From assembly GCF_042231085.1 (NCBI RefSeq), contig NZ_CP102579.1: a DNA stretch of 64,000 nt; one strand, 5' to 3'. This stretch comes from Corallococcus interemptor (GTDB lineage: Bacteria; Myxococcota; Myxococcia; Myxococcales; Myxococcaceae). Of the stretch, positions 31,846-48,923 are shown piece by piece; positions within the stretch are counted from its first letter, which is position 1; every line of letters starts with the position of its first letter. Both the position numbers and the translations under genes were made by a program. A model generated the notes under the pieces. That model did not search any database. It saw nothing but the letters and a program-made list of their open reading frames with translations, and was not told the origin of the DNA.

Positions 31846-34850
<3,005 letters not shown>

Positions 34851-35023
34851 TCCTTCGTTACTCTTGGCAGTGCCTACGCCGCCCGTTTCCGGTGCATCCG
34901 GAAGCGAGGCGGCGTTTTCGCGTGGGTGTCAATCACCCTCACGGGGGATGCAACCGCAGCGAGGAGTGCGCCAGAACCTGGGTGCCAGGTCGTCCCACCC
35001 ATGACGACCCGGGGGGCACCTCC

Positions 35024-38000
35024 ATGAATCCGCACGACTCGGTCCTGCTGAAAGAGCTTCAGCGGCAACGCACCCGGTTGCTGGATTTGAGCGCAACCAA
35101 CCGACTCCTCAACTTCAAGCACACGGCCCGGACGTCGCTGCGCATTGTGGATGAACTGCCAGGTGTCGTCTTCGAGCGCCTGAGCAACCACCGCGCGCTC
35201 ACGTTCCTTCCGGTGATGCCACCGGAGCAAGCCTCCGAGGAAGAGGAGGACTTCGATCCCGCCGCCGCGACGGTGGTGTTTTCGATGACGACGGAGGAGG
35301 CCCCAAGCAAGGACGCTCGGCAGAAGCTGCTGCTTCAACAGGCGAAGAAGCTGGGCATCGATACCCGGTATGAGCTGCCCAAGGCGGTCCCGGCAGAGAG
35401 CGGCAGCAATCCTCGCAAGCACCAGGATCGCCACCTCCAGACGTTGTACTTCCCGGAGGATCTGGAGAGCCACCTGCACCGACTCCAGGGCCTCGCGCAA
35501 ACGGCCATCCAGGAGACCGGGGCCAATCTGCTCCACTTCGCCTTCGGGTTCCTGCGCTGGTACGAGTCCGGCGACACGCGGCAGGAGAAGCCTCGCAGCG
35601 CTCCACTCGTGCTCATGCCGGTGAGCCTCAAACGCGGCCAAGCCCACCCGGAGACGCAGGTCCACTCCTACGAGGTGGACTACAATGAAGGCGAGTCCAT
35701 CGACTCGAACCTCACGCTCCAGGAGAAGCTGCGGCAGGAGTTCGGCATCACGCTGCCGGCCTTCTCCGCGGAGGAGGGGCTGGAGGCGTACTTCGACAAG
35801 GTGACGGCGCTGCTCAAAGGCCTGCGCCCTGGCTGGAGCCTGGAGCGGCAGGTGACCCTGACGCTCCTGTCCTTCGGGCGGCTCCTGATGTGGCGGGACC
35901 TGGAGCCCAGCCGCTGGCCTCAGAACAGTCCCATGCTGGCGAACCCGCTCGTCCGGACGCTGATGGGAGGACAGGCGGAGGCGAACGAACCTGGCGGAGG
36001 TGGCGGGGGCAGCCGGGAGCGCCGGAGCGAGGTCTACGATTTGGACTCGCAGGAGGTCAATCCGCCGCCACTCATCACGGACGCGGACAGCAGCCAGCAC
36101 AGCGTGTTGGTGGACGTGCTCCGGGGCGAGAATCTGGTGGTGCAAGGGCCGCCCGGCACCGGGAAATCACAGACCATCACCAACCTCATTGGCGCGGCGT
36201 TGGCGGCGGGCAAGACCGTGCTGTTCGTCACGCAGAAGTTGGCGGCGTTGGAGGTCGTCTCACGCCGCCTCCAGCATGCGGGGCTCGGCGAGTTCTGCCT
36301 GGAGTTGCACAGCCACAAGACCCAGAAACAGCAGTTCATGGAGGACCTGCGTCGCCGACTCAACCTGGATGCGAGCGCGACCGATCCCCGCCCGCTCACC
36401 GAACAGGTCTCGAACGCGGCGGGCATCCTGCGCGCGCATACCGAGCGAATGCACAAGCCGTTCGGGACACTCGGCATGTCACCGCATGACGTGTTCTGGA
36501 AGGTCAGTCGCGCGGAATCGGAACTGGGAGACGCGGTCGTGGAGCTGGAAGGCCTCCGCTTCGAGGGCGCCGAAGGCATGTCTACCCATGCGCTATCGGA
36601 GGTTCGCGACGCGGTTCGGAGTCTCGCGGCGCAGCTTGGGGATGTTCGCCGCGTCGCGCCCATCCTCAGTGCCCACCCCTGGGCGGGTGTGACGAACGAT
36701 GCGCTGACCGACAAGGACCGTCAGACACTCGTTCAGCGTATCGCCACCTGGGAGGAGTCCGCGCTGCTCCTGGAGAAGGCGCTGGCGGCCTTCACCGTCC
36801 GCACGGGCGTCACGCCCAGATCGAGCGCACTCGCGGTGGATGCGCTGATCTCCAACGTCCGAGTCCTGCCACGGCTTCCAGAAGGGACTCCCGCGACGCT
36901 GGTCCCTGCCCTGCTCGATTCCACGCAGAGAGAGGGATTACGAGCCCTGCTTGATGCCATTGAAGCGGTCCAGGCCCGGTGGGCGGGGTTGGAGGCAGGC
37001 TGGCGTGCCCAGGAAGACCTGACCGCGTCCGCGCTGCGCGGCGCGGAAGCCGTCCTCGACATGGCCCTGCGTCTGCTCTCGCCTGACACCACGCTCGTGA
37101 CACTGACGCGCGCGCATGAAGCGGTGGAGGCCGCTGCTCGAATCCTGGCGCAGGCTCGCCGGTTCGCGGCCGACGTGGCTTCCCGCCTGGAAGTCGACGT
37201 CACGCGCTGGACGCCCCAGCAACTCCAGTCTTTCGCCCGCGTCGTCGAGGCGATGGCCGCCCTGAACGACACCACTTTGGAGTGGCGGGACCCGTGCTGG
37301 ATCGAACGCGAAGCCGAGGAGACACTTCGGAAGGCTGACAGCACCTGCACGGAATTGAAAGAGCAGGCACGGGCGCTCGCGGTGCGCTTCATGCCCGAAC
37401 TCGTTCCTCCCCTCGCGACGCTCAAGTCCCATGCGGTTGCGGTTTCAACCGCGCCATTCATCCCCTGGCTCTCGAGCGCATGGCGTGCCGCGCGGCGGGA
37501 CTTCCAGGCCATGGCACATGGCGTACGTCCAACAAGGCCCGTACTGGTTCAGGGCTACAACGACCTGCTGGCTCATTACGCGGCACGGGAGCGGTTCCAG
37601 GAGGACGCGACCTTGAAAGCGACCCTTGGCGCCCGCTTCCAGGAAGTCGAGACACGCTTCGACCGAATCCTTTCGTGGTTGGACGCATACCGGACCATCG
37701 ACGCATTGATCCTCCCCATGGGTGAGCGAGGTTTGGGGCTACGCCGAGCAGTGTTGGAGCGTTCCCCGAGCCATTGGCGCGAGATCCTGGCGATGGTCCG
37801 CGCGAAGAGCGAAGAACTGTCCCAGGTCCGAGACGTAAGCACTTTCGTGCAAGAAGCCTCGACGCGCATGGGGCTGCCGAGCGCCCCCTGGAACACCGAG
37901 TCCTGCGGAAAGGCCCAGGACAGCCTCGACGCCCTGCTGAAGCACCTGAGCCAGGTCCTGAACTGGGCACGGAAGGGAGATGCCCCGCCGTCCCTGACCC

Positions 38001-40222
38001 TCTCCCAACTCCAGGGACAACTGCGCCGGGTGCGTGAAGCGTGCGAAGCCGCAGACCGACTGGAAGCGCACGCTTCCGCGGCGACCCTGCCAGGGGTGGC
38101 CTACCAGGGGCGGAAAACCTCCCTAGCGGGTCCCCGAAGCATCCTCCGACATGTTGATGACCTCCTCGCGGCGCCGCTCCCTGAAGGGCTGGCGGAGTGG
38201 CTGCTACGAGAGGACACGCCACGAAGGCACGCGGACCTGCTCGCCATCACGAACGAATTGGAGACAGCCCTCAGTGCCTACAGACAGTCCGCAACCCAAG
38301 CCCGGGAGCTGGGAAGGATGGCCCAGGGCACCTGGGAGGATCTCGCCGCCGAGAAGCCGCTCCAATCGACGGTCTTGCGACTGCGCCAGGCCCGAAGCCA
38401 GTCCGCGACGCTTCCAGCCTGGTGCGCGTATCAACGGCAGCGGCGTGCCGTCGCGCGAGCGCGGAGCACCGCTGGGTTCCTGGAGCGCGTCGACACACGT
38501 CCGGGCCTGGAGCCGGAACGGCTGGTCGCGGCCTTCGACGCTGTCTTCTTCCGCTCCCTGGCGGAAGCCATCCTGCGAGACCAACCCGAGCTCGACCAGT
38601 TCACGGGCGCCGTTCATGCCTCCCAGAGAGAGGAGTTCGCACGCCTGGACACGCATTGCATCGAAAGGCAGGGCCGATACCTGGCACGTCAACTCAGCCA
38701 GCGTCCGGTTCCTCCGGGTGTGTCCTCGGCGAAAGTGGCGGGTATGACGGAGACCCATCTTCTGCGGCACGAGTTGGGAAAGAAGCAGCGGCACCTCCCC
38801 ATTCGTGAACTGGTCGCCCGTGCCGGCAGTGCGCTCCAGACGCTGATGCCGTGTTTCATGATGGGTCCGCAGTCGGTCGCCCAGTACCTGCCCGCCGGCC
38901 AGTTGACCTTCGACCTGGTCGTGATGGACGAGGCCAGCCAGATGCGTCCCGAAGATGCGCTGGGCGCCATCGCGCGAGGGAGACAGTTGGTGGTAGTGGG
39001 CGACCCGGAGCAACTCCCTCCCACCAGCTTCTTCGCCCAGATGGAACAGGAGGACACAGAGTCCAACGACGAGGCGGGAGACGAGGCTCAGGGCCCGTCC
39101 TTCCTGGAGGATTCAGAGAGCATCCTCACGGCGGCGGCGGAGCGGTTCCCCATGCGCATGCTGCGCTGGCATTACCGTTCACGTCACCCCTCGCTCATCG
39201 CCTTCAGCAATCGTGAGTTCTACAACGGCGACCTCATCACCTTCCCTGCACCGGGTGAGCAACTGGAAGGTTTGGGGCTGCGCTTCCACAAAGTGGACGG
39301 AGGACTGTACGAGTCCAACCGAAACGTCCCCGAAGCCCGCGAAGTGCTGGCGAAGGTGAAGGAGCACGCGCGGACACGTCCTGAGCAGAGCCTGTTGGTC
39401 GTCACGCTGAATTCGAAGCAGCGGGATCTCATCGACGACCTGGTGACTGCCGAGGAGAAGAACGACGCGACCCTCCGAGCCTTCCTGGCGAAGTGGGAGA
39501 AGTCACCCATGCCCTTCGACGTGAAGAACCTGGAGAACGTGCAAGGCGACGAGCGCGACGCCATCTTCGTGTCGGTCACGTTCGGTCCCGACAAGAACGA
39601 GCGCTTCCGGATGAACTTCGGGCCCATCAACCAGGCGGACGGATACCGCCGGTTGAACGTCCTCTTCACGAGGGCGCGGTGTGCACTGACGGTGTTCGCG
39701 TCCTTCGACCCGTCACAGCTCAAGGTCCAGGAGAGCAGTCCCCGTGGGATGCGCGTCCTGCAACGGTACCTGTCCGAAGCCAAGGGAGAGAAGGTGGCGC
39801 ACGGCGTGGGGAGCGGCCGTCCACCGGATTCCGACTTCGAAATCGCCGTCGCGAAGGCGCTCGCGGCGCGGGGCTTCGAGGTGGTTCCGCAGGTAGGCGT
39901 TGCGGGCTACTTCATCGACATGGCCCTCCGGCATCCCCAGCAACCAGGCCGGTACATCCTCGGTGTCGAGTGTGACGGCGAGCGGTACCACTCGTCGCGT
40001 TCCGCGCGGGACCGGGACCGGCTCCGGGACCAGGTGTTGAAGGGCCTGGGGTGGAAGCTTCACCGCATCTGGTCCACGGACTGGTTCCGCTCGCCTTCAG
40101 AAGAGGTCGCCCGGATCGTCGCGCGCGTCGAGGAGCTCCTTCGGGAGGAGGCGGCTGAGCTGCCAGCCGTCGTGCGTGAAGAGTCCCCGGTGGAGCATCA
40201 GATGCGGGCCGTCAGCGCCTGA
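35024..40222 (+). CDS. giant DUF4011 - SF1 (Upf1-like AAA_11/AAA_12) helicase - C-terminal Vsr/DUF559-like restriction-endonuclease-fold protein (1732 aa)
   Basis: N-terminus LLKELQRQRTRLLDLSATNRLLNFKHTARTSLRIVDELP (DUF4011-like). Walker A VVQGPPGTGKSQTITNLIG. C-terminal helicase ...YRRLNVLFTRARCALTVFAS. Terminal ...YFIDMAL...ILGVECDGERYHSSRSARDRDRLRDQVLKGLGWKLHRIWSTDWF. Confidence 0.9.
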   Translation: MNPHDSVLLKELQRQRTRLLDLSATNRLLNFKHTARTSLRIVDELPGVVFERLSNHRALTFLPVMPPEQASEEEEDFDPAAATVVFSMTTEEAPSKDARQKLLLQQAKKLGIDTRYELPKAVPAESGSNPRKHQDRHLQTLYFPEDLESHLHRLQGLAQTAIQETGANLLHFAFGFLRWYESGDTRQEKPRSAPLVLMPVSLKRGQAHPETQVHSYEVDYNEGESIDSNLTLQEKLRQEFGITLPAFSAEEGLEAYFDKVTALLKGLRPGWSLERQVTLTLLSFGRLLMWRDLEPSRWPQNSPMLANPLVRTLMGGQAEANEPGGGGGGSRERRSEVYDLDSQEVNPPPLITDADSSQHSVLVDVLRGENLVVQGPPGTGKSQTITNLIGAALAAGKTVLFVTQKLAALEVVSRRLQHAGLGEFCLELHSHKTQKQQFMEDLRRRLNLDASATDPRPLTEQVSNAAGILRAHTERMHKPFGTLGMSPHDVFWKVSRAESELGDAVVELEGLRFEGAEGMSTHALSEVRDAVRSLAAQLGDVRRVAPILSAHPWAGVTNDALTDKDRQTLVQRIATWEESALLLEKALAAFTVRTGVTPRSSALAVDALISNVRVLPRLPEGTPATLVPALLDSTQREGLRALLDAIEAVQARWAGLEAGWRAQEDLTASALRGAEAVLDMALRLLSPDTTLVTLTRAHEAVEAAARILAQARRFAADVASRLEVDVTRWTPQQLQSFARVVEAMAALNDTTLEWRDPCWIEREAEETLRKADSTCTELKEQARALAVRFMPELVPPLATLKSHAVAVSTAPFIPWLSSAWRAARRDFQAMAHGVRPTRPVLVQGYNDLLAHYAARERFQEDATLKATLGARFQEVETRFDRILSWLDAYRTIDALILPMGERGLGLRRAVLERSPSHWREILAMVRAKSEELSQVRDVSTFVQEASTRMGLPSAPWNTESCGKAQDSLDALLKHLSQVLNWARKGDAPPSLTLSQLQGQLRRVREACEAADRLEAHASAATLPGVAYQGRKTSLAGPRSILRHVDDLLAAPLPEGLAEWLLREDTPRRHADLLAITNELETALSAYRQSATQARELGRMAQGTWEDLAAEKPLQSTVLRLRQARSQSATLPAWCAYQRQRRAVARARSTAGFLERVDTRPGLEPERLVAAFDAVFFRSLAEAILRDQPELDQFTGAVHASQREEFARLDTHCIERQGRYLARQLSQRPVPPGVSSAKVAGMTETHLLRHELGKKQRHLPIRELVARAGSALQTLMPCFMMGPQSVAQYLPAGQLTFDLVVMDEASQMRPEDALGAIARGRQLVVVGDPEQLPPTSFFAQMEQEDTESNDEAGDEAQGPSFLEDSESILTAAAERFPMRMLRWHYRSRHPSLIAFSNREFYNGDLITFPAPGEQLEGLGLRFHKVDGGLYESNRNVPEAREVLAKVKEHARTRPEQSLLVVTLNSKQRDLIDDLVTAEEKNDATLRAFLAKWEKSPMPFDVKNLENVQGDERDAIFVSVTFGPDKNERFRMNFGPINQADGYRRLNVLFTRARCALTVFASFDPSQLKVQESSPRGMRVLQRYLSEAKGEKVAHGVGSGRPPDSDFEIAVAKALAARGFEVVPQVGVAGYFIDMALRHPQQPGRYILGVECDGERYHSSRSARDRDRLRDQVLKGLGWKLHRIWSTDWFRSPSEEVARIVARVEELLREEAAELPAVVREESPVEHQMRAVSA

Positions 40223-40224
40223 AC

Positions 40225-40230
40225 AGGAGA
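40225..40230 (+). promoter_or_regulatory. AGGAGA Shine-Dalgarno 5 nt upstream of the second gene of the operon (14-nt intergenic gap)
   Basis: Seen directly; supports translational coupling with the helicase gene. Confidence 0.5.
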
Positions 40231-40235
40231 CATCC

Positions 40236-41801
40236 ATGACAACGATCATCGCCATTGGCCTGGGCATTCTGGGCCTGTTGCTCCTTGGCTTGTGGCTGCG
40301 GACACAGAGCCGGCTCAAAGCCGTCCAGGAACGATTCAAGCCCATCCTGGACCTGGAGGCCGAACGGCGCCGGGTCGCGGAGGAGTTGACGCGGGCCCGC
40401 ACGGACGCGACCACCGCGATGGCCGCGGAACAGAAGCGGGTCCAGGACGATTTGGCGAAGGCACGGAGCGAAGCGGACAGTGCACTGGCGGCGGAGCGGA
40501 AGCGGGTAGAGACCGAGCTTGCCCGGGCAAAAGCGGACGTTGAGCAGGCCATCGCCGCTGAGCAGGGCCGAGCGAAAGCGGAGTTGAACCGGCTCCGCGA
40601 AGAGACGAGCCGGACGACGCAAAGCGCGACGCGCGCCATGGAGGAGGCAGAAGCCCGTCGAAAGCAGGCGAACGCCGAGCGGACCAACCTGGAGTCAGGC
40701 ATCGCCCGCCTGAGGGCCGAGTTGAAGGCACTGGAGGAAGAGGAGGTCCTGCTCTCCTTCGGCTTCTACAAGCCGGTGTACGCGCTGGCGTCGGTCAAGG
40801 AGTACGAGGACCGGCTGGAGAAGATCCGCGACGCGCAGAAGCAGATGCTGAAAAACAAGGAAGCCGCCACGTGCTCCATTCAGTGGGAAGTGAATGGAAG
40901 CAAGGCGGAAGGCAAGAAGCAGATTGAGCGGACCTTGAAGCTGATGCTCCGGGCCTTCAATGGCGAGGCGGACGCGTGTGTAGCGAAGGTGTCCTACAAG
41001 AACGTCAAGGCCATGGAGACGCGCATCGAGAAGGCAGCCGCCGCCATCAATGGTCTCGCGGAGATCCAGCAGTGCGTCATCGCCAGGCGCTACGTCAAGC
41101 TCAAGGTCGAGGAGCTGATGCTCGCGTACGAGTACGAGGAGAAGGTGCAGCAGGAGCGTGACGAGCAGCGCCGGATCCGGGAGCAGATGCGTGAGGAGGA
41201 AGCCGCCCAACGCGAGTTGGAGAAGGCGAAGCTGGAAGCGGAGCGCGAAGCGAAGCGCGATGCAGAAGCGCTGGCCAAGGCGCGGGCGGACTACGAGCAG
41301 GCGAAGGGCTCGGAGCAGCAGAAGCTGATGGAGCGCATCGCGGAGCTGGAGCGCCGTGTGGCAGAAGACATGGAGAAGCAGCGCGCCATCTCCCAGGCAC
41401 AGCTCACGCGCACCGGGCACGTCTACGTCATCTCCAATATTGGTTCCTTCGGGGAGGGCGTGTTCAAGCTGGGGATGACCCGACGATTGGTCCCCCAGGA
41501 CCGCATCGACGAACTTGGAGATGCCTCGGTGCCGTTCGAGTTCGATGTCCACGCCATCATCCGGACCTCGGACGCCCCTGCCCTGGAGAACGCCCTGCAC
41601 AAGGCCTTCGCGAACCGGCGAGTCAACCGCATCAATGAGCGAAAGGAGTTCTTCCGCGTCGGCCTGGATGAGATCGCGGAGGCAGTCCGCAAGCATCACG
41701 GTGAGTTTGAACTGACCCGGGCGGCCGAGGCTGCGGAATACCGGAAGACATTGGCACTCCAAGAGGAGGAACAAGGTCGACCAAGTGAGCGAGCCGCATG
41801 A
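40236..41801 (+). CDS. N-terminal TM helix + long coiled coil + DUF4041 + T5orf172/MUG113 (GIY-YIG-like) domain protein
   Basis: TM IIAIGLGILGLLLLGLWL. Heptad-rich AEQKRVQDDLAKARSEAD... C-terminus GHVYVISNIGSFGEGVFKLGMTRR...DRIDELGDASVPFEFDVHAII...FANRRVNRINERKEFFRV. Confidence 0.85.
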   Translation: MTTIIAIGLGILGLLLLGLWLRTQSRLKAVQERFKPILDLEAERRRVAEELTRARTDATTAMAAEQKRVQDDLAKARSEADSALAAERKRVETELARAKADVEQAIAAEQGRAKAELNRLREETSRTTQSATRAMEEAEARRKQANAERTNLESGIARLRAELKALEEEEVLLSFGFYKPVYALASVKEYEDRLEKIRDAQKQMLKNKEAATCSIQWEVNGSKAEGKKQIERTLKLMLRAFNGEADACVAKVSYKNVKAMETRIEKAAAAINGLAEIQQCVIARRYVKLKVEELMLAYEYEEKVQQERDEQRRIREQMREEEAAQRELEKAKLEAEREAKRDAEALAKARADYEQAKGSEQQKLMERIAELERRVAEDMEKQRAISQAQLTRTGHVYVISNIGSFGEGVFKLGMTRRLVPQDRIDELGDASVPFEFDVHAIIRTSDAPALENALHKAFANRRVNRINERKEFFRVGLDEIAEAVRKHHGEFELTRAAEAAEYRKTLALQEEEQGRPSERAA

Positions 41802-41840
41802 ATTAGGCCCCGCCTGCGGTTCTGATAGCGTTCGCCCTCG

Positions 41841-43568
41841 ATGAGTTCCTATTCGTTCCTGCATCCCAAGGATGCTCTCCCCAACGCTGTCATCACTGCC
41901 GCCAAAAGCCGGAAAATCGCGTTTCTGGTCGGTTCCCCCTTGTCGACGCAGGAACGAGCCGACGCCCCCCAGGTGCCTGGGGTAGAGGCGATGCTGGATC
42001 TCATCCGCGAGCACGTCCCGACCGGATTCAAGGCGAGATTCGACACGGAGCGCGAGCACACCAAAGAGAACAGATACCAATGGGCCATGCATTTCGTGCA
42101 AGGCCTTGAGGACAAGAAAGTCTCCGAGAAGGTTGTTCGAGAGGCTGTGCTTCGCGCACGGGTGGACCGCCAACGCGATGGAGTAGCGACTGACGACGAA
42201 CTGGATCTGGATTATGGCGGATGGGCCTTACCTCCGGCGACGGAGCATCTCGGAAGATTGCTGGTGGAGAGAGCCGATACGTTTGGCCCCGTCTTGACCA
42301 CGAATTTTGATCCCCTCATCTCAGCATCGGTGAAGGTGGCTGGCGGTGATTTCCATCGCACGATCGTGACTCACGACAGCCCGTTCGGGCAGACGGTTCC
42401 TTCCTCTTCCAAATCCACGCACATCATCCACCTTCACGGCTACTGGCATGACTCGCCTACGTTGCACACTGGCATCCAGCTTGGTCGCGAGCGCAAACTC
42501 GTCTCTGCGGAGCTGATCCAGATCCTTCAAAGCCACACACTTGTCGTTATCGGATACGGCGGATGGGACGATGTCTTCACCCAGACACTCGCGGCGATTG
42601 ACGTCGACAGACACAAGGATGTCGACATCCTCTGGGGTTTCTACGAGAAGAATGACGCTGTAATCGAGGCCTGCAATCCGACGCTCTTCAGCAGGGTTGC
42701 CAATTTACGAGGCAACAAAGGGCTTCGTTGTTATGGCGGAATCGATTGCCACAAATTCTTCCCTGAACTGCGTCAACACTTTGGCGCATCCGTTGCCCCG
42801 CAGTCGCCCCCTCCAAGCACAGTCCGACAGCCACCGTCGCCATCCATCCCAATCGCCTCGGCCACCAGAGCCCCTGGGCCGGCGACCTCGCCCCACTCAA
42901 GTGCGGCGAAGCCACCCGAGCCTGTGCCTTCCGCTTCGGATCGTTCCGTTTCCCGGTCCGCTCCGAAGACGGACGGCACAGGCAGCCCTTCGAAATCAGG
43001 CTCCAAGAGAATCCTGCTGTTTGCTGCTGCCGCGCTGATTGCTGGCGGCGTGGCAGCGGTCTGGCCATCCCCGAGCAAAAGCGTCAACAATGACGTCTTT
43101 GTCGTTCAGACTCCGCGCAATCTGAGACCTGTCCAGCCGCAGCCCCCGACGGCTGCTCCGGTCCCGGCACTCGCGAGCACGCTCAGAAACGTTCGCCAGC
43201 AGCATCAGGTCGTCGCCGCTTCGGACGCCGAGCGTGGGGCTCGCGTCTCGCAGCTTCCCAGGGGACGCTACGCGTTTGTACCGATGAGCACCGTTCCCAC
43301 CTACAGCGCGGACACACCCATCTATGGCCCCATCCAGGAGGGGATTGAGCTTCATCGCGCGCTCTCGGATGGATCCCTGTACCTCGTGGGCTACGCGGAT
43401 GCCCCAACCATCACGGCCCTGGGGTATCCGAACCCTGCGCCCATCGTCATCACGCCCACGCCCAGCAACAGAAGGGCGCAGGTCGCGAGCATTCCTGTGA
43501 CTCGGATGGTCACCGCTGAAGTTCGCATGGACAAAGGCACCCGCGTGTTGGTTCTCCACCTCAACTAA
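41841..43568 (+). CDS. SIR2-like (SIR2_2 / DHS-like NAD-binding) domain protein with central TM helix and C-terminal extracytoplasmic domain
   Basis: IAFLVGSPLS; TTNFDPLI; HIIHLHGYWHD; VVIGYGGWDD. Pro/Ser-rich linker, then TM ILLFAAAALIAGGVAAVW. Visibly lower GC. Confidence 0.8.
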   Translation: MSSYSFLHPKDALPNAVITAAKSRKIAFLVGSPLSTQERADAPQVPGVEAMLDLIREHVPTGFKARFDTEREHTKENRYQWAMHFVQGLEDKKVSEKVVREAVLRARVDRQRDGVATDDELDLDYGGWALPPATEHLGRLLVERADTFGPVLTTNFDPLISASVKVAGGDFHRTIVTHDSPFGQTVPSSSKSTHIIHLHGYWHDSPTLHTGIQLGRERKLVSAELIQILQSHTLVVIGYGGWDDVFTQTLAAIDVDRHKDVDILWGFYEKNDAVIEACNPTLFSRVANLRGNKGLRCYGGIDCHKFFPELRQHFGASVAPQSPPPSTVRQPPSPSIPIASATRAPGPATSPHSSAAKPPEPVPSASDRSVSRSAPKTDGTGSPSKSGSKRILLFAAAALIAGGVAAVWPSPSKSVNNDVFVVQTPRNLRPVQPQPPTAAPVPALASTLRNVRQQHQVVAASDAERGARVSQLPRGRYAFVPMSTVPTYSADTPIYGPIQEGIELHRALSDGSLYLVGYADAPTITALGYPNPAPIVITPTPSNRRAQVASIPVTRMVTAEVRMDKGTRVLVLHLN

Positions 43569-43574
43569 CATCCA

Positions 43575-44234
43575 ATGACATTCAACAACCGAATTCTTCT
43601 TGGGCTGACGTCGATTCTCTTGCTAGCAGGCTGTGGGCCCGAAGACTCAAGCTCAGGCCCCATCACGGAGAACCCGCCACTCGAAGAAATCTGTACTGCA
43701 GCGAATTGTGCAGGCTGCTGCGATCCGACCACGAACCAGTGCGTCGAAGTTCGTACCAACGACGCGTGCGGTGTTACCGGCACCAAATGCTCGAAGTGCG
43801 CGACCGGGACCATCTGCCATCCGTCACAGCAACAGTGCTACACCCCCACCATTCGCACGAAGATCCAGCCCCTGCGCGCCACGATCGCTCCGCAGGATCC
43901 TGCTGACAACAGTGACTGGGACGTAGATGGCTCGCCGCCGGATGTCGTGGTCAAGCTGTCCTGTCCCAACGCACAGCCTGCGCCCCCTTCGGAGGAAGTT
44001 GAAAGCTTCACCCCTACGTGGACGCAGGGGGCATGCGACGTCCTGAGTACCGATCTGCTTTCGGCCCCCATCCAGTTCACCGTCATTGACGTTGACACCC
44101 TCTTTGACGACCCGATTGCGTCTGCGCAGTATCAGATGACCCGAGCCGACATTGACCGTGGCGTCGTGGAGTTCGCGAGTTCCGGTGCGTTGCTCTCCTT
44201 GGCCCTCCAGATCACCACATACTACGCCGAATAG
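43575..44234 (+). CDS. Cys-rich secreted lipoprotein (paralog of 48303..48923)
   Basis: 7 nt after the SIR2 stop. Lipobox LLAGCGP. CTAANCAGCCDPTTNQCV...CSKCATGTIC. DWDVDGSPPDVVVKLSCPN. Confidence 0.7.
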   Translation: MTFNNRILLGLTSILLLAGCGPEDSSSGPITENPPLEEICTAANCAGCCDPTTNQCVEVRTNDACGVTGTKCSKCATGTICHPSQQQCYTPTIRTKIQPLRATIAPQDPADNSDWDVDGSPPDVVVKLSCPNAQPAPPSEEVESFTPTWTQGACDVLSTDLLSAPIQFTVIDVDTLFDDPIASAQYQMTRADIDRGVVEFASSGALLSLALQITTYYAE

Positions 44235-45258
44235 ACGGACACCTCGGCCCGCCGCCAGCGTTGTTGGATGCTGGCGGCCATGTTCTTGCGGAGGTTTGCC
44301 ATCCAGCGCTGACAAATCGACACCCCTGAGCGTCCCCACACATTCTTGCTTTGATCCAAGCCAAGAGCCCACATGAGGCTGGAGGCAGCCTCGTACCGCA
44401 GCTCATCCGGGGCCTCGAGTCGTAAGCGCACCGCTGCCTCAAAGTCTGGATCCAGGAGGAGCGCGAGGATTTCCGCATCCACCGCGGGGCTCATCTCGAC
44501 CGCTGCTTCCACATGCATCAGGATTTCCTTCCTGTCCAACCATCGGAGCGCACGCATACCCGGGTCGAGCAGGATGGCATCCACGAACGATGGGTACCCG
44601 CCATGCTCCCGGTAATAGCTCACGTCCGCATTGCCCAGCCCCACCCGCCCATAAGTACGAGGCCGATCCATGCGAACACCCGCGACGCACGCTTCCTCCA
44701 TGTCACAGAAGGACAACTCCGCGCCTCGGAGATCAGCGCAGCGCAGGTCCGCCTTCATCAACGTCGCTGCGGTCAAACGGGCGCCCTGAAGTCGGCGCGA
44801 CGGAATGAGCCGTGAACCAGGTTTGAAGCCGTGAGGACTGCCCCTTCCAAGGAAGCATCCTCCCAGCACGTGCCCATCGCGACGCAAGCCATCAGGCTGG
44901 CGCGCTCCATGCGCGCCCAGGTCAGCGAGGCGCCAGACAACGTGGTGAAGTCGAGCCGCGCCTCGTTGAGCCCGCAGTCATCCAGGCGGGCGCCATCGAG
45001 CCGAACATGGACGAACTCCGCGCCCGGTAGCTCTTCCTGAGTGAGGTCGATGCCTCGGAGATCCCCCACGTGGGGTCCCAATGCATCTGCTCCCGGAAAG
45101 CCCTTGAGGACTTCACGCCAGGGTCCTTGAAATCCCGAGGCGATCAAGCGCTCGCGCCGGCGCTGACCATCGGGTGTGAGCCAGCGTTCTGCCAGGTCGG
45201 ATCGCATGACCGGGCTATAACATCCAGAACCAAAGGCATTCGATGAACCTCCACGCAT
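44222..45258 (-). pseudogene. pentapeptide-repeat protein gene, apparently disrupted by a frameshift near 44800 (two overlapping ORFs 44773..45258 and 44222..44887)
   Basis: Pentapeptide repeats run to the very C-terminus of the upstream ORF (...EDASL EGAVL TASNL VHGSF RRADF). They resume in the other frame (RRLQG ARLTA ATLMK ADLRC ADLRG AELSF). Confidence 0.45.
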
Positions 45259-47021
45259 CCACCGTGCACTCCAGCTCCCGAAGGCTCATCGGGCTCCTGT
45301 TGGCGCTGCTGCCTTTCCATGTCGGCGCTGTCCCCATGTCTGCGGAGGCGTTGGTGGGCATCTGGGGCAGTGAGCGTATTCTTGGGCCCCAGGTTCAGGG
45401 TGAGCTGACGCTGGTCCGGCATGGGGACACCTGGCGCGCGCGCATCGGCGGATTCGATGTTCCTGCCCGGTTCGAGGGCTGCAAGGTGTCCGTCGTCTTC
45501 CCAGGAGGAGAACTCCGAGCGACGTTGATGGAGAACAGTCAGAGCATCACGGGTCACTGGATCCAACCGCGTGTGCTCATGAGCGGCATGAAGTTCGCCT
45601 CTCCCGTGGAACTGCGCGCGCTCCAGCCGGGTGTCTGGCGCGGCAACGTGGCTCCGCTGGAGGACCGGTTCTCGCTGTATCTTGTCGTCCAGAAGCAGCC
45701 TGACGGCTCCGTGACGGCGTTCATTCGCAACCCGGAGCGGAACTTCGGCAACCGGATGCTGTTCCGTGTGGAGCTTCAGGACCGCACGGTCCGGCTCACG
45801 GACACCAAGAGTGACACCCAGATTGAAGGCACGTTCGACGAGCAGTCCGGACGGCTGTCTCTCCCCTACCCTCCCTTTGACACGAGCTTCGACTTCACTC
45901 GTCGGGACCGCTCGCAGGCCGTGGGGCTCTACTCCCGCACTCCTGCTCCTGGCCCCTACGCCTACCAGAAGCCCATCGCGGAGGACGATGGCTGGACCAC
46001 GGCCTCCCCTGCGGACGTCGGCATGGACGTCCAGCCGCTCCAGCAGCTCGTGCAGCGCATCCTCGACCAGGAACCGAGCCCGGAGTCCGTGCCCGCCATC
46101 CAGGGCCTGCTCATCGCGCGCCACGGAAAGCTCATCGTCGAAGAGTACTTCCAGGGCTTCGACAAGGAGCGTCCCCACGACCTGCGGTCCTCCTCCAAGT
46201 CCTATGCGTCCCTGCTCATCGGCATCGCCCTGGACCAGGGCGCCCCGTTCACCGTGGACACGCCCGTCGTCTCACTCTTCCCTGAGTACAAGGGCAAGCT
46301 CTCCAACCTGGACGCTCGCAAGCGCAAGGTCACCGTCGCGCACCTGATGACCATGGCGACGGGCCTGGCCTGTGACGACGACAATCCAGAGTCACCCGGC
46401 AACGAGGACCGGCTCGAGGACTCCGTACCGGATTGGTACAAGTACACGCTGGACCTCCCCATGGTCCGCGCTCCCGGCGGCGGGAAGGCCGTGTACTGCT
46501 CCGCGAACATCAACCTCCTCGGCGGCGTCCTCCGCAACACCACCCGTACCTGGATCCCCGAGTTCTTCACGAAGAACGTCGCCACGCCCCTCCAGATGCG
46601 CGGCTACCACCTGGACCTCATGCCCGATGGTGAGCAGTACCTGGGCGGCGGCATCTACATGCGCCCTCGTGATGCCCTGAAGCTCGGGCAGCTCTACCTC
46701 TCCGGCGGCACCTGGAACGGGAAGCGCGTGGTCAGCCAGCGCTGGGTGGAACGCTCCGTCGCGAAACAGGCGACGATGCCGGACGGACGGACCTATGGCT
46801 ACACGTGGTGGCGCCACGAGCTGCGCGTCGGTGGCCGGGTGTATTCACAGTACGAAGCCAGCGGGAACGGTGGCCAGCTCGTGATGGTCGTCCCGGAGCT
46901 GGACCTCGTCGTGCTCTTCACCGCCGGCAACTACAACCACGTCTCCCTCTGGCGGAAGTTCCGCGAGGAACTCCTGCCCCGGTACATCATGGCCGCGGTC
47001 TCCCCTCCCCCGCGGCCCTGA
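45243..47021 (+). CDS. secreted serine hydrolase, beta-lactamase/PBP-like (class C-like fold)
   Basis: Signal peptide. S-x-x-K motif SSSKSY. ~590 aa with N-terminal extra domain. Confidence 0.8.
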   Translation: MNLHASTVHSSSRRLIGLLLALLPFHVGAVPMSAEALVGIWGSERILGPQVQGELTLVRHGDTWRARIGGFDVPARFEGCKVSVVFPGGELRATLMENSQSITGHWIQPRVLMSGMKFASPVELRALQPGVWRGNVAPLEDRFSLYLVVQKQPDGSVTAFIRNPERNFGNRMLFRVELQDRTVRLTDTKSDTQIEGTFDEQSGRLSLPYPPFDTSFDFTRRDRSQAVGLYSRTPAPGPYAYQKPIAEDDGWTTASPADVGMDVQPLQQLVQRILDQEPSPESVPAIQGLLIARHGKLIVEEYFQGFDKERPHDLRSSSKSYASLLIGIALDQGAPFTVDTPVVSLFPEYKGKLSNLDARKRKVTVAHLMTMATGLACDDDNPESPGNEDRLEDSVPDWYKYTLDLPMVRAPGGGKAVYCSANINLLGGVLRNTTRTWIPEFFTKNVATPLQMRGYHLDLMPDGEQYLGGGIYMRPRDALKLGQLYLSGGTWNGKRVVSQRWVERSVAKQATMPDGRTYGYTWWRHELRVGGRVYSQYEASGNGGQLVMVVPELDLVVLFTAGNYNHVSLWRKFREELLPRYIMAAVSPPPRP

Positions 47022-47028
47022 GCCGCGC

Positions 47029-47688
47029 TCAATCGCGGTCCGGCGCTCCTAGCGGGAAGAGATGCCGATACGGCCGGCCCCCGTCCACCGCGCGGGCCAC
47101 CGACGGACGCGCGAGCAACCTCGCGCGATAGGCGCGCAGTTGGGGACACGACTCGGGAATCCGGTGCGTCCAGTCCGCGTAGAACAGCGACGGCGCCGCC
47201 GCACAGTCCGCCAACGTGAAGTCGTTGCCCGCCGCCCAGGTCCGGCCACCCAACTGCCCTTCAATCCAGCCGTAGGCGCGCTCCAGCTTCTCCACCGCCA
47301 GCTTCATCCCGTCCTGGCGCGTCACCGGGTCCCCCGTCAACGCCCCGTCCACGGCGTGCTGGGCCGCGTTCATGACGTGCAGGTCGAAGAACCGGTCGAG
47401 GAACCGCACGTCCAGCGCGGCCATCGGGTCCTCCGGCAGCAGGCGCACCGGCCCGGGATGCTTGAGCTGGAGGTACTCGATGATGATGCTCGTCTCGACG
47501 ACCTGACGGTCACCGTCCACCAGCAGCGGGAACTTGCGCAGCGGCCAGCGGCGCAGCCACTCGGCTGAGTGCTCCGGCGTCTCCGGGCTGATGCTTCGAA
47601 ACTCGAAGGGTGTTCCGTTCTCATACAGCGCGATGAGCACCTTCTGCGTGTACGAAGAGAAATAGTGACCGTAGACCGCGAGCGACAT
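47029..47688 (-). CDS. glutathione S-transferase
   Basis: N-terminal thioredoxin-like GST domain (VYGHYFSSYTQKVLIAL...). C-terminal helical domain. Confidence 0.85.
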   Translation of the reverse strand: MSLAVYGHYFSSYTQKVLIALYENGTPFEFRSISPETPEHSAEWLRRWPLRKFPLLVDGDRQVVETSIIIEYLQLKHPGPVRLLPEDPMAALDVRFLDRFFDLHVMNAAQHAVDGALTGDPVTRQDGMKLAVEKLERAYGWIEGQLGGRTWAAGNDFTLADCAAAPSLFYADWTHRIPESCPQLRAYRARLLARPSVARAVDGGRPYRHLFPLGAPDRD

Positions 47689-47772
47689 CGTCCGCCCCCT
47701 TGCGTTTCACAACGAGTTGAACCGTATTTCGACCCCTTGCATACTGCAAGCAGCATCCCCAGGAGCACGGCC

Positions 47773-48270
47773 ATGCCGCAGACAGGGCGCTCCGGCTGCC
47801 CCATCAACCTGACGCTCGAACAGCTCGGCGACCGCTGGAGCCTGATCGTCATCCGCGACGTCATGTTCGGGAACCGGCGCAGCTACGGCGACCTGCTCTC
47901 CCGGAGCGAGGAGGGCATCGCCTCCAACATCCTCGCGGACCGGCTGAAGCGCCTGACCGCGTCCGGACTGCTGTCGCGCCGCCCGGATCCGAACCACCAG
48001 CAGAAAGGCATCTACAGCCTCACGGAGGCGTCCATCCAATTGGTGCCCCTGCTCGCGCACATGGGCGCCTGGGGCCGCCGGCACACGCAGGTGACCGAGG
48101 AGCTTTCGGTGCGCGCGGAGCTGCTTGAAAAGGGCGGCCCGCCCCTCTGGAACGCGTTCATGGCGGAGCTGCGCCACCTGCACCTGGACGCGCCGCGCCC
48201 TTCCCGCTCGGTGTTCCGGGAGCTTCAGGCCGCCTATGAGAAAGCCATCGCACGCAAGGCCCGGGACTGA
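47773..48270 (+). CDS. HxlR-family transcriptional regulator
   Basis: CPINLTLEQLGDRWSLIVIRDV...RSYGDLL...EGIASNILADRLKRLTASGLLSR. Divergent from the GST gene. Confidence 0.85.
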   Translation: MPQTGRSGCPINLTLEQLGDRWSLIVIRDVMFGNRRSYGDLLSRSEEGIASNILADRLKRLTASGLLSRRPDPNHQQKGIYSLTEASIQLVPLLAHMGAWGRRHTQVTEELSVRAELLEKGGPPLWNAFMAELRHLHLDAPRPSRSVFRELQAAYEKAIARKARD

Positions 48271-48302
48271 GGGCCCTGAAGCGGGTAGCGTTCACCGCGC
48301 TC

Positions 48303-48923
48303 ATGAAAGTCCTCGGCGGTTGGATGTTCATCCTGATGTGCGCGCTGTGGCTCCCCGCCTGCGGTCCCTATGACTGCACCCCGGAGAACTGCGCGGACGG
48401 GTGCTGCTCCTCGTTCAACGAGTGCATCTCGTTCCGGAGCGACTCGGAATGCGGCCCCGATGGCAGCGTCTGTGAACCCTGCGCGGAGGGCAGCGTCTGC
48501 CGGCTCGACCAGCACACCTGCTACGTGGGCGTGATGCGCACCTTCATCCAGCCCCGGTACGCCACCATCGCGGACGCCGACCCGGACACGGGCGAGGACT
48601 GGGACTCCGACGGCTCCCCGCCGGACGTCGTCGTGGAGATGAACTGCCCCTCCGCTCCCGAACGCACCCGCACCGAGGAAAGCGAGAGCTGGGATCCCGA
48701 ATGGCGCACCGGCGGCTGCCAGATCATCACCTCCAACCTGCTGCGCTACCCGCTCGAAATCTCCATCTTCGACAACGACAACTACACCTTCGATGACGAG
48801 TTCGGCGGCCTCTCCTACCAGGTCACCCACGGCGACCTGAACCGGGGCCGCATCGAGCTCTCCATCCCGCCCATCGTGAAGACGCTCGTCTTCGAACTGA
48901 GCCACAACTACGCGCCGCGCTGA
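48303..48923 (+). CDS. Cys-rich secreted lipoprotein (paralog of 43575..44234)
   Basis: LPACGPYDC. CTPENCADGCCSSFNEC...CEPCAEGSVC. DWDSDGSPPDVVVEMNCPS. Confidence 0.7.
   Translation: MKVLGGWMFILMCALWLPACGPYDCTPENCADGCCSSFNECISFRSDSECGPDGSVCEPCAEGSVCRLDQHTCYVGVMRTFIQPRYATIADADPDTGEDWDSDGSPPDVVVEMNCPSAPERTRTEESESWDPEWRTGGCQIITSNLLRYPLEISIFDNDNYTFDDEFGGLSYQVTHGDLNRGRIELSIPPIVKTLVFELSHNYAPR

What the first reader, a model, noticed from the sequence alone, without database searches (positions are those of the whole stretch)
35024..44234. Four-gene operon resembling a novel anti-phage defence module: giant helicase-nuclease, T5orf172 protein, SIR2-TM protein and lipoprotein
Four + strand genes have 14-, 40- and 7-nt gaps (SD AGGAGA before gene 2). 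They encode:
1. DUF4011 + SF1/Upf1-like helicase + Vsr/REase-fold nuclease (1732 aa);
2. TM helix + ~250-aa coiled coil + DUF4041 + T5orf172 (GIY-YIG-like);
3. a SIR2_2 NADase-like domain, followed by a TM helix and a 170-aa outside domain;
4. a Cys-rich lipoprotein.
Helicase-nuclease fusions, T5orf172 and SIR2 domains are each hallmarks of defence islands, since SIR2 effectors deplete NAD+. I do not recognise this particular combination as a named system. It is unusual in that three of the four products are membrane-anchored.
Basis: partly seen in the sequence, partly recalled or inferred. Interest (0 to 1): 0.85.

Follow-up and report, generated by a model that had tools for sequence, protein, structure and literature searches.

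The report
Defence operon with membrane-spanning SIR2 module
This Corallococcus operon is not one new four-part defence system: it strings together two already-known single-gene anti-phage systems (an Hhe-like helicase-nuclease and the membrane nuclease SNIPE) and a third, apparently undescribed two-gene unit in which a membrane-spanning SIR2 enzyme with a periplasmic domain is paired with a C2-domain lipoprotein.

Summary
The four + strand genes exist as described (35024-44234; gaps 13, 39 and 6 nt; terminator-like hairpin after gene 4). The single-system interpretation holds only in part.

- Gene 1 is collinear with Hhe / PADLOC PDC-S37.
- Gene 2 is a full-length SNIPE (PD-lambda-1) homologue. 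Both families are single-gene systems, and in the four plasmid or prophage contexts inspected their homologues stand alone.
- The four-gene order was found only in Corallococcus, always at the same ABC-F-flanked site, so it reflects shared descent.
- Genes 3 and 4 recur as a pair without genes 1 and 2 in five other contexts. They also diverge together faster (68/75%) than genes 1 and 2 (89/91%).

X also follows a TM helix behind TIR, PNP, phosphoesterase and FAD/NAD-Rossmann domains, mostly in Myxococcota. One Rossmann-type member is also followed by a gene-4 homologue.

Best reading: a three-module defence operon whose third module is a new envelope-sensing NAD+-depleting unit. That function is inferred, not shown.

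The parts
35024..40222 (+). g1: Hhe-like DUF4011 + SF1 helicase (Walker A GPPGTGKS) + MTES_1575/Vsr-like REase, 1732 aa; module 1 (single-gene defence family)
   Evidence: Pfam; PADLOC PDC-S37 1266 bits / Hhe 944 bits; NCBIfam Hhe_antiphage 1444 bits, collinear 12-1723 vs model 2-1701/1797, below the 2000-bit equivalog cutoff; closest plasmid homologues are PGAP-annotated Hhe at 37-38% identity
40236..41801 (+). g2: SNIPE / PD-lambda-1 homologue: N-terminal TM helix (aa ~4-24), long spacer, DUF4041 (aa 235-290), GIY-YIG/T5orf172 nuclease (aa 394-486); module 2 (single-gene defence family)
   Evidence: Pfam; PADLOC PD-Lambda-1 E=2e-153, aa 91-515 vs model 51-478/496; architecture matches SNIPE as described in PMC13190303
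41841..42800 (+). g3 N-terminal cytoplasmic SIR2 domain (aa 1-320) with invariant N155/D157 (TTNFDPL) and H199 (HLHG)
42801..43172 (+). g3 Pro/Ser-rich low-complexity linker (aa ~321-444) containing the single TM helix (aa ~391-409, nt 43011-43067)
   Evidence: Hydropathy scan; AF2 pLDDT <50 for 317-444; basic residues KSGSKR precede the helix, consistent with N-in/C-out topology (inference)
43173..43568 (+). g3 C-terminal periplasmic domain 'X' (aa ~445-575), an alpha/beta fold with no Pfam model
   Evidence: Conserved across the SIR2-TM clade; AF2 pLDDT 76-94; 488 representatives at E<=1e-3 in an exhaustive HMM search; found behind a TM helix in proteins with SIR2, TIR, PNP, Metallophos and FAD/NAD-Rossmann N-termini; no PDB sequence match
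43575..44234 (+). g4: lipoprotein (lipobox Cys20, nt 43632-43634) + Cys-rich module (aa 40-88, nt 43692-43838) + C2 domain (aa 92-218, nt 43848-44228); partner of g3
44251..44278 (+). Terminator-like hairpin (12-bp stem, 8 G-C pairs) 17 nt after the g4 stop; likely operon end
   Evidence: consensus scan only; the T-tract is poor

Best explanation
The block is a compact, probably co-transcribed defence operon made of three separable modules, not one four-component system.

Module 1 (g1) is an Hhe-family DUF4011 helicase-nuclease. Module 2 (g2) is a SNIPE/PD-lambda-1 membrane-tethered GIY-YIG nuclease, which in E. coli cuts phage DNA as it is injected. Both families act as single genes.

Module 3 (g3+g4) is a conserved two-gene unit that I could not find described. 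g3 is an inner-membrane protein with a cytoplasmic defence-type SIR2 (NAD+ glycohydrolase-like) domain, one TM helix and a periplasmic domain X. g4 is a periplasmic lipoprotein carrying a disulphide-rich module and a C2 (Ca2+/phospholipid-binding type) domain.

Proposed mechanism for module 3 (inferred): X, together with the C2 lipoprotein, detects an event in the cell envelope, such as membrane perturbation or lipid or Ca2+ exposure caused by phage adsorption or genome injection. The signal crosses the membrane by changing the oligomeric state of g3, and the SIR2 domains assemble and hydrolyse NAD+, causing growth arrest or abortive infection.

Shown here: domain identities, topology-compatible architecture, conserved pairing of g3 with g4, independence from g1 and g2, and swapping of the cytoplasmic effector on a constant TM-X scaffold. 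Inferred: NADase activity, the trigger, physical g3-g4 contact, and an anti-phage role.
For: g1 and g2 belong to known single-gene systems; SNIPE architecture and single-gene function in PMC13190303 and PMC9519451.

g1 and g2 homologues stood alone in the four contexts inspected: Hymenobacter plasmid and E. coli prophage for g2; Klebsiella and Vibrio plasmids for g1.

The four-gene order occurs only in Corallococcus, always after the same ABC-F gene.

g3-g4 pairs occur without g1 or g2 in L003, L004/L005, L006, L011 and L089. None of the 66 loci that matched only the SIR2 domain has a g1, g2 or g4 homologue.

Between the window and L001, g3 and g4 are 68% and 75% identical, g1 and g2 are 89% and 91%, and ABC-F is 98%.

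The SIR2 domain is structurally closest to anti-phage NADase sirtuins (ThsA, PsSIR2, KomC, Nezha, Avs5), has invariant N155 and H199, and is 36-42% identical to the N-terminal SIR2 of SIR2-NB-ARC/STAND proteins.

The X domain is a confident fold. It sits behind a TM helix in proteins with SIR2, TIR, PNP(+EAD5), calcineurin-like phosphoesterase or FAD/NAD-Rossmann N-termini. PNPase, TIR, SIR2 and calcineurin-like phosphoesterase are described as interchangeable effectors in conflict systems of multicellular prokaryotes (PMC7159879, PMC8195603).

A g4 homologue (37% identity, E=2e-37) lies 1 nt downstream of an FAD/NAD-Rossmann-type TM-X gene (L092).

g4 is a C2-fold lipoprotein with invariant Asp clusters.
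Against: No experiment or expression data exists; NADase activity and any phage link for g3-g4 are inferred from homology.

The g3-g4 pair is not always in a defence context. In L011 and L004 the neighbours are housekeeping or unknown genes.

The g4 family also has solitary members (the window paralogue at 48303-48923, L090, L091), so it is not exclusively a SIR2 partner.

Only one cross-effector context (L092) could be retrieved, and it is a short contig.

About 64 of the 150 best X hits are TM-less ~140-aa proteins, so X is not intrinsically extracytoplasmic.

The TM helix is not modelled confidently by AF2, and topology rests on hydropathy and the positive-inside rule.

In Corallococcus the four genes have stayed adjacent, with tiny gaps, down to ~47% g3 identity. 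This is compatible with functional cooperation and does not exclude it.
Confidence: 0.68

Rival explanations
1. The four genes are one integrated system. The membrane nuclease g2 and the membrane SIR2 protein g3 (with g4) would sense injection at the envelope, and the g1 helicase-nuclease would degrade the invading DNA, with all four needed for full function.
For: Same strand, 13/39/6-nt gaps, no internal terminator-like site and one hairpin after g4. The order g1-g2-g3-g4 is kept in every Corallococcus locus, down to 47% g3 identity. Three products are membrane-associated.
Against: All Corallococcus loci sit at the same ABC-F-flanked site, so the synteny is inherited, not independently assembled. 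No locus outside the genus has the four together. g3-g4 occur alone in five other contexts. The g1 and g2 homologue contexts inspected elsewhere stand alone, and SNIPE works as a single gene (PMC13190303). g3 and g4 evolve at a different rate from g1 and g2. L002, the only g2-g3 adjacency labelled as non-Corallococcus, has g2 at 90% identity to Corallococcus, a truncated g3, and GC that falls along the contig.
Confidence: 0.12
2. g3-g4 is not anti-phage. It would be a myxobacterial social or envelope-surveillance device: an outer-membrane lipoprotein (g4), possibly exchanged between cells by outer-membrane exchange, is read by the periplasmic X domain. This triggers SIR2-mediated self-intoxication or growth arrest in kin discrimination, developmental cell death, or the response to envelope damage by competitors or prey.
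For: The TM-X and g4 families are concentrated in Myxococcota (Corallococcus, Archangium, Pyxidicoccus, Myxococcaceae MAGs). Myxobacteria exchange OM lipoproteins and use polymorphic lipoprotein toxins for kin discrimination (PMC3325183 and PMC5562445, seen in titles and abstracts only). g3 and g4 are highly polymorphic between close strains. Some g3-g4 loci lie among housekeeping genes. The same effector set is linked to conflict and apoptosis-like systems of multicellular prokaryotes.
Against: In Corallococcus the pair is co-oriented with, and likely co-transcribed with, two bona fide anti-phage genes. In L003 and L006 it follows an HSDR_N restriction-type nuclease gene. The SIR2 domain's nearest structural and sequence relatives are anti-phage effectors. 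There is no toxin-immunity gene arrangement like sitA/sitI. The two readings are not fully exclusive.
Confidence: 0.15
3. g4 is only a neighbour. X alone would be the sensor, or g3 would be a regulatory sirtuin (a protein deacylase or ADP-ribosyltransferase acting on envelope-related targets) rather than an NAD+-depleting suicide effector.
Against: Every intact SIR2-TM-X gene retrieved (Corallococcus plus five other contexts) is followed within 0-120 nt by a g4 homologue, and so is one FAD/NAD-Rossmann-type TM-X gene. X and g4 identities fall in parallel across loci. The top structural matches are NADase-type defence SIR2s, not deacetylases. Replacement of SIR2 by TIR or PNP on the same scaffold points to NAD/nucleotide destruction, not protein deacylation.
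Confidence: 0.05

Closest known systems
Hhe (DUF4011 helicase + Vsr/REase-type endonuclease; single-gene anti-phage system; NCBIfam NF042953, PADLOC Hhe and PDC-S37)
   Same: g1 is collinear with the Hhe model over its full length (aa 12-1723) and has DUF4011, an SF1 helicase core and a C-terminal MTES_1575 REase. The nearest plasmid homologues are annotated Hhe.
   Different: It scores 1444 bits, below the 2000-bit equivalog cutoff, and is only 37-38% identical to annotated Hhe proteins. PADLOC ranks PDC-S37 above Hhe. It is an Hhe-family member, not a strict orthologue.
SNIPE / PD-lambda-1 (Vassallo et al. 2022, PMC9519451; Saxton et al. 2026, PMC13190303)
   Same: g2 has the N-terminal TM helix, central DUF4041 and C-terminal GIY-YIG/T5orf172 nuclease, and matches the PD-Lambda-1 HMM at E=2e-153.
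   Different: The N-terminal region is long (~200 aa between the TM helix and DUF4041). The paper reports this region as the most variable among homologues. The host is a myxobacterium, and the cognate phages and host partner (ManYZ in E. coli) are unknown.
Defence-associated SIR2 NADases (Thoeris ThsA, DSR1/2, SIR2-HerA/Nezha, SIR2-pAgo, Avs5 SIR2-STAND)
   Different: None of these has a TM helix, a periplasmic domain or a lipoprotein partner. g3 lacks SLOG, HerA, APAZ/Ago, STAND and DSR-type C-terminal sensor regions. The presumed sensing compartment is the periplasm, not the cytoplasm.
Effector-swapping conflict systems of multicellular prokaryotes (Kaur, Burroughs, Iyer, Aravind 2020/2021; e.g. 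EACC1-caspase 'System 4', EAD-linked systems)
   Same: A constant component is combined with interchangeable PNPase, TIR, SIR2 and calcineurin-phosphoesterase effectors. One member carries EAD5. The systems are enriched in Myxococcota.
   Different: The constant part here is TM + X domain plus a Cys-rich C2 lipoprotein. No NTPase, vWA, caspase or EACC1 is present. System 4 as described is a different pair of genes. No mention of a C2 or lipoprotein partner was found in those papers.
Eukaryotic-type C2 domains (cPLA2, synaptotagmin, Munc13, perforin)
   Different: Here the C2 domain is on a bacterial periplasmic lipoprotein, preceded by a 10-Cys module. Ca2+ or lipid binding is untested, and sequence identity to C2 domains is 10-20%.

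Membership tests
Hhe (single-gene anti-phage helicase-nuclease) | N-terminal DUF4011 domain | tested here: met
   PF13195, E=8e-35, aa 18-236
Hhe (single-gene anti-phage helicase-nuclease) | SF1 helicase core (AAA_11/AAA_12) with Walker A motif | tested here: met
   PF13086 and PF13087; GPPGTGKS in the translation
Hhe (single-gene anti-phage helicase-nuclease) | C-terminal Vsr/REase-type endonuclease | tested here: met
   PF18741 MTES_1575, E=4e-37, aa 1605-1701
Hhe (single-gene anti-phage helicase-nuclease) | Passes the NCBIfam equivalog cutoff (2000 bits) | tested here: not met
   1444 bits, full-length alignment. It is a family-level relative only, and PADLOC prefers PDC-S37
Hhe (single-gene anti-phage helicase-nuclease) | Protects against phage as a single gene | not testable with these tools
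   Needs expression and phage challenge
SNIPE / PD-lambda-1 | Central DUF4041 (SNIPE) domain | tested here: met
   PF13250, E=1e-20, aa 235-290
SNIPE / PD-lambda-1 | C-terminal GIY-YIG / T5orf172 nuclease | tested here: met
   PF10544, E=2e-17, aa 394-486
SNIPE / PD-lambda-1 | N-terminal membrane anchor within the first ~70 residues | tested here: met
   The hydrophobic stretch IIAIGLGILGLLLLGLWL at aa ~4-24 matches the published range. Topology was not tested
SNIPE / PD-lambda-1 | Full-length match to the system's HMM | tested here: met
   PADLOC PDLC03977, E=2e-153, aa 91-515 vs model 51-478/496
SNIPE / PD-lambda-1 | Cleaves phage DNA during injection | not testable with these tools
   Experimental
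Thoeris ThsA (SIR2-SLOG) | SLOG (or Macro) ligand-binding domain and a ThsB TIR partner gene | tested here: not met
   g3 has no SLOG or Macro hit, and the neighbours are g2 and g4, with no TIR gene
Avs5 / SIR2-STAND | STAND NTPase (NB-ARC) and repeat sensor C-terminal to SIR2 | tested here: not met
   g3 has a TM helix + X domain instead. STAND-type relatives share only the N-terminal ~55%
SIR2-HerA (Nezha) and SIR2-pAgo (SPARSA) | Adjacent HerA helicase, or an APAZ/short pAgo partner | tested here: not met
   No such gene in the operon or flanks. There are only weak SIR2-domain-level PADLOC hits
Defence-type SIR2 NADase domain (fold and active site) | SIR2 Rossmann fold with conserved catalytic Asn and His | tested here: met
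Defence-type SIR2 NADase domain (fold and active site) | NAD+ hydrolysis on activation | not testable with these tools
   Needs an enzymatic assay
Proposed new class: [effector]-TM-X + Cys-rich C2 lipoprotein | X domain located C-terminal to a single TM helix | tested here: met
   g3. 25 of 32 X proteins with an N-terminal region >=150 aa have a helix within 170 aa upstream
Proposed new class: [effector]-TM-X + Cys-rich C2 lipoprotein | g4-type lipoprotein gene immediately downstream | tested here: met
   Window, L001, L003, L004/5, L006, L007-L011 and L089, and L092 with a different effector.
Proposed new class: [effector]-TM-X + Cys-rich C2 lipoprotein | Physical interaction of X with the lipoprotein, and envelope-triggered activation | not testable with these tools
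   Needs complex prediction, pull-down and physiology
C2 domain | Eight-stranded beta-sandwich superposable on C2 domains | tested here: met
C2 domain | Ca2+-dependent phospholipid binding | not testable with these tools
   Invariant Asp clusters (D108, D116, D118, D123, D172, D174, D178, D179 in 10 sequences; seven of the eight remain invariant in 21 sequences) are suggestive only

The most novel reading that the evidence does not exclude
g3-g4 would be the founding example of an undescribed class of bacterial outside-in immune or suicide receptors: a periplasmic sensing unit (domain X plus a disulphide-rich C2 lipoprotein) wired through a single TM helix to interchangeable cytoplasmic NAD/nucleotide-destroying effectors (SIR2, TIR, PNP nucleosidase, calcineurin-like phosphoesterase, an FAD/NAD-Rossmann domain). 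It would detect phage attack, or another envelope breach, before or as the genome enters. This would be conceptually parallel to eukaryotic single-pass receptors with cytoplasmic TIR domains, and it uses a C2 domain, which is rare in bacteria.
Probability: 0.4. Interest if true: 0.82.

Novelty: new variant of a known kind. Interest (0 to 1): 0.62.

Why it matters
For the finding as stated, the result is sobering. Half of the "novel system" consists of Hhe-like and SNIPE genes that annotation tools already recognise, and the unusual membrane anchoring of g2 already has a published explanation.

What remains is narrower and more interesting. Almost all characterised SIR2, TIR and PNP defence effectors are switched on by cytoplasmic cues such as phage proteins, nucleic acids or second messengers. 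A SIR2 effector joined through one TM helix to a conserved periplasmic domain, and always paired with a C2-domain lipoprotein, suggests that NAD+-depletion immunity can be triggered from the envelope. The same TM-X scaffold carrying TIR, PNP and phosphoesterase heads suggests this is a general, modular solution in Myxococcota.

It gives concrete handles for testing how bacteria sense phage at the cell surface: the X domain, the C2 lipoprotein, and residues N155 and H199. That question is currently represented by only a few systems, such as SNIPE, and (from my own knowledge, not checked here) Zorya and Kiwa.

It also adds a confident bacterial periplasmic C2 domain and an uncharacterised domain family of 488 representatives.

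Tried and rejected
1. Mobile-element origin. There is no tRNA and no integrase or transposase in the flanks. The GC dip extends into ordinary genes, so I could not define an island by its borders.

2. L002 as independent evidence for g2-g3 linkage. I rejected it. Its g2 is 90% identical to Corallococcus, its g3 is truncated after the TM helix, it has no g4, its GC falls along the contig and it carries a plasmid Rep3 gene. It is probably chimeric or mis-binned.

3. Exact-sequence context look-ups for P0007, P0008 and P0009 found nothing on record. The genome scan covered those loci instead.

5. Phage origin of the TM-less X-only proteins. There are no PHROG hits and the sources are unnamed metagenomes.

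6. A metagenome scan with a diverse X alignment failed for lack of a conserved pattern. The narrower alignment returned a single short locus.

7. L093 was uninformative because the gene sits at the contig start.

8. 'System 4' of Kaur et al. 2020 was checked as a possible prior description. It is a different gene pair.

9. Literature searches for a SIR2-TM/lipoprotein system, for C2 lipoproteins in myxobacteria, and for ProA found nothing relevant. I could not trace what NCBIfam's 'ProA' refers to.

10. A single-sequence PDB search with the SIR2 domain found nothing. The profile search did.


Full report
**Observation**

The window is high-GC (~72%), with a dip to 60-68% at about 32-52 kb.

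| Gene | Coordinates | Length |
|---|---|---|
| g1 | 35024-40222 | 1732 aa |
| g2 | 40236-41801 | 521 aa |
| g3 | 41841-43568 | 575 aa |
| g4 | 43575-44234 | 219 aa |

- The gaps are 13, 39 and 6 nt, and AGGAGA precedes g2.
- No terminator-like site lies between the genes. The strongest hairpin of the region (12-bp stem, 44251-44278) follows g4.
- The source is a Corallococcus: g4 is 100% identical to a C. interemptor protein, and g3 is 98% identical to a C. coralloides protein.
- The flanks are ordinary genes. Upstream are tgt and an ABC-F ATPase. Downstream are pentapeptide proteins, a beta-lactamase-like protein, GST, HxlR, BrkB and rmlCAD.
- There is no tRNA, integrase or transposase.

**Genes 1 and 2 are known systems**

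- **g1.** PADLOC assigns it to PDC-S37 (1266 bits) and Hhe (944 bits). NCBIfam's Hhe_antiphage model aligns collinearly over aa 12-1723 at 1444 bits, below the 2000-bit equivalog cutoff. The nearest plasmid homologues (37-38% identity) are annotated Hhe by PGAP. g1 is therefore an Hhe-family member rather than a strict orthologue.
- **g2.** It matches PD-Lambda-1 at E=2e-153 over essentially the whole model. Pfam now names DUF4041 'SNIPE'.
- **What SNIPE is.** Saxton et al. (PMC13190303) show that SNIPE (the gene first found as PD-lambda-1; PMC9519451) is a single-gene system. It has an N-terminal TM anchor, a DNA-binding DUF4041 and a GIY-YIG nuclease, and it cuts phage DNA during injection. 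They report that 59% of homologues have one TM helix. g2 has all of these features, so its membrane anchoring is already explained.
- **Independence.** In the four homologue contexts I inspected, both families stand alone. These were SNIPE on a Hymenobacter plasmid and in an E. coli lambdoid prophage, and Hhe on Klebsiella and Vibrio plasmids.

**Synteny test**

I scanned one genome per species (GTDB) with the SIR2-TM clade alignment and then ran tblastn with all four proteins.

- g1-g2-g3-g4 appears in every Corallococcus locus (C. coralloides, C. interemptor, C. sicarius, C. praedator; also L001), always after the same ABC-F gene. This is one orthologous locus, so it is not independent evidence of functional coupling.
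- Outside the genus only g3-g4 recur together:
  - L003 and L006, where a soluble HSDR_N nuclease-like gene lies upstream instead;
  - L004/L005;
  - L011;
  - L089.
- The 66 other SIR2 loci, which matched only the SIR2 domain, carry no g1, g2 or g4 homologue.
- Between the window and L001, identities are ABC-F 98%, g1 89%, g2 91%, g3 68% and g4 75%. g3 and g4 form a faster-evolving unit.
- L002, a contig with g2 next to a g3 homologue and labelled Hymenobacter, is not independent. Its g2 is 90% identical to Corallococcus, its g3 is truncated after the TM helix, and its GC drifts downward into plasmid-like sequence.

**Anatomy of g3**

- Residues 1-316 are a SIR2 domain. The TTNFDPL (N155, D157), HLHG (H199) and GYGGWDD motifs are invariant in the TM clade and in soluble relatives.
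- A profile of the domain aligns the two motifs onto FAM118B and onto the Sir2 partner of short pAgo.
- By sequence, the closest non-TM relatives are the N-terminal SIR2 domains of SIR2-NB-ARC/STAND proteins, at 36-42% identity.
- Residues 317-444 are Pro/Ser-rich and disordered. They contain one hydrophobic helix at ~391-409, preceded by KSGSKR.
- Residues 445-575 form a confident alpha/beta domain (pLDDT 76-94) that is conserved throughout the clade. I call it X.
- The SIR2+TM+X architecture is confined to the 13 best hits among 5.8 billion clusters.

**Anatomy of g4**

- g4 has a lipobox (LLAGC), an invariant Gly at position +2, a module with ten invariant Cys, and a C-terminal domain with invariant Asp clusters.
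- The family is tiny, at ~31 clusters, all from Myxococcota or metagenomes.
- It has two branches. The g4-type branch always lies next to a TM-X gene.
- The solitary branch is found among housekeeping genes. It includes the window's own paralogue at 48303-48923 (37% identity). In C. sicarius and C. praedator this paralogue sits directly after g4.

**The X domain defines a wider class**

- An exhaustive HMM search of 1.84 billion representatives with X alone found 488 proteins at E<=1e-3 and 74 at E<=1e-10.
- Among the best 150 hits, 79 have a hydrophobic helix within 170 residues upstream of X. Of the 32 with an N-terminal region of at least 150 aa, 25 have that helix.
- Those N-terminal regions are SIR2, TIR/TIR_2/ThsB_TIR, PNP_UDP_1 nucleosidase (one with EAD5), calcineurin-like phosphoesterase, or an FAD/NAD-binding Rossmann domain.
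- PNPase, TIR, SIR2 and calcineurin-like phosphoesterase are described as interchangeable effectors in conflict systems of multicellular prokaryotes (PMC7159879, PMC8195603).
- Named sources are Archangium, Pyxidicoccus and Myxococcaceae.
- In the single metagenomic context I could fetch for a non-SIR2 member (L092), the TM-X gene is near-identical to the C-terminus of the Archangium FAD/NAD-Rossmann protein P0163. It is followed after 1 nt by a 227-aa g4 homologue (37% identity, E=2e-37).
- The constant unit is therefore TM-X plus the C2 lipoprotein, and the cytoplasmic head is exchangeable.
- X has no Pfam model, no PDB sequence match and no viral structural match.

**Interpretation**

The best-supported reading is a three-module defence operon.
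- Modules 1 and 2 are members of known single-gene families.
- Module 3 (g3+g4) is a self-contained pair. I propose that it couples an extracytoplasmic signal, sensed by X and the C2 lipoprotein, to assembly and activation of a cytoplasmic SIR2 NADase, giving NAD+ depletion and abortive infection or growth arrest.

What is shown: the architecture, the conserved pairing, the effector swapping and the kinship of the SIR2 domain.

What is inferred: the enzymatic activity, the topology, the g3-g4 contact, the trigger and the anti-phage role.

Points against or limiting:
- Some g3-g4 loci are not in recognisable defence neighbourhoods.
- Solitary g4-type paralogues exist.
- Many X-only proteins lack a TM helix.
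- Only one cross-effector context is available.

Rivals:
- An integrated four-gene system. It is disfavoured because the synteny is confined to one orthologous locus in one genus.
- A social, kin-discrimination or envelope-surveillance role specific to myxobacteria. It is plausible and partly overlaps with the main reading.
- g4 as a bystander. It is disfavoured by the strict adjacency.

**Comparison and novelty**

- g1 is a new member of the Hhe/PDC-S37 kind, and g2 is a new member of SNIPE.
- g3 uses a known effector kind, the defence SIR2. It fails the membership tests for Thoeris, Avs5, SIR2-HerA, SIR2-pAgo and DSR, because it has none of their partner or sensor domains.
- I found no description of a SIR2-TM-periplasmic-domain protein with a C2 lipoprotein partner in PADLOC, NCBIfam, Pfam or the searchable literature. 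The library does not cover subscription-only papers.
- I rate the whole finding as a new variant of a known kind: effector-swapping NAD-targeting conflict systems, with a new, envelope-located constant component.
- Interest is 0.62. It remains substantial because of the g3-g4/TM-X class.

Noticed in passing
window 48303-48923 (+): A paralogue of g4 (37% identity, E=2e-53): a 206-aa lipoprotein with the same Cys-rich module and C2 domain, ~4 kb downstream and not next to any SIR2 gene. The same solitary type occurs in Corallococcus, Myxococcus and Pyxidicoccus. In C. sicarius and C. praedator (L009 12524-13138; L010 11488-12051) it lies directly after g4, which suggests tandem duplication.
   Followed up: partly
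window ~32000-52000: The GC dip (60-68% against ~72%) extends well beyond the four defence genes into ordinary-looking genes (pentapeptide proteins, beta-lactamase-like, GST, HxlR, BrkB, rmlCAD). There is no integrase, transposase or tRNA, so the low-GC region is not a classical mobile island.
   Followed up: partly
L003 3902-5134 and L006 282-1517: A ~410-aa soluble protein with an HSDR_N (type I restriction R-subunit N-terminal, PD-(D/E)xK-like) domain sits directly upstream of the SIR2-TM-X/g4 pair in two independent metagenome contigs. It could be another neighbouring defence gene or a lineage-specific third component.
   Followed up: partly
L002 1-7587: A contig binned as a Hymenobacter MAG carries a SNIPE fragment 90% identical to Corallococcus g2 and a g3 homologue truncated just after its TM helix, followed by Rep3 plasmid-replication and SocA_Panacea genes. 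GC falls from 67% to ~42-57% along the contig. This is probably a chimeric or mis-binned assembly, or a recent transfer with decay.
   Followed up: partly
L011 (BNCN01000021.1): The record is labelled Comamonas sp. KCTC 72670 / JC664 (Betaproteobacteria). It has 68% GC, a SIR2-TM-X/g4 pair otherwise seen only in Myxococcota-like sequences, and the same deformylase and fatty-acid-desaturase neighbours as metagenome contig L003. The organism label may be wrong.
   Followed up: partly
proteins P0204, P0212, P0218, P0229, P0244 and others: About 64 of the 150 best X-domain hits are ~135-150-aa proteins consisting of the X domain alone, with no TM helix or signal peptide. All are from unnamed metagenome sequences and have no PHROG or Pfam match. 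Their role is unknown; a soluble sensor, an antagonist or an unrelated function are all possible.
   Followed up: partly
P0163, P0166, P0167: TM-X proteins of 730-815 aa carry an N-terminal ~430-aa FAD/NAD(P)-binding Rossmann region (GxGxxG) in the effector position. This is not a standard defence effector, and one of them (from Archangium) is paired with a g4-type lipoprotein.
   Followed up: no
window 35024-40222 (NCBIfam hit): g1 also scores 1138 bits against an NCBIfam model called 'anti-phage protein ProA' (NF058533, cutoff 1500). I could not find a paper describing ProA in the searchable library.
   Followed up: partly
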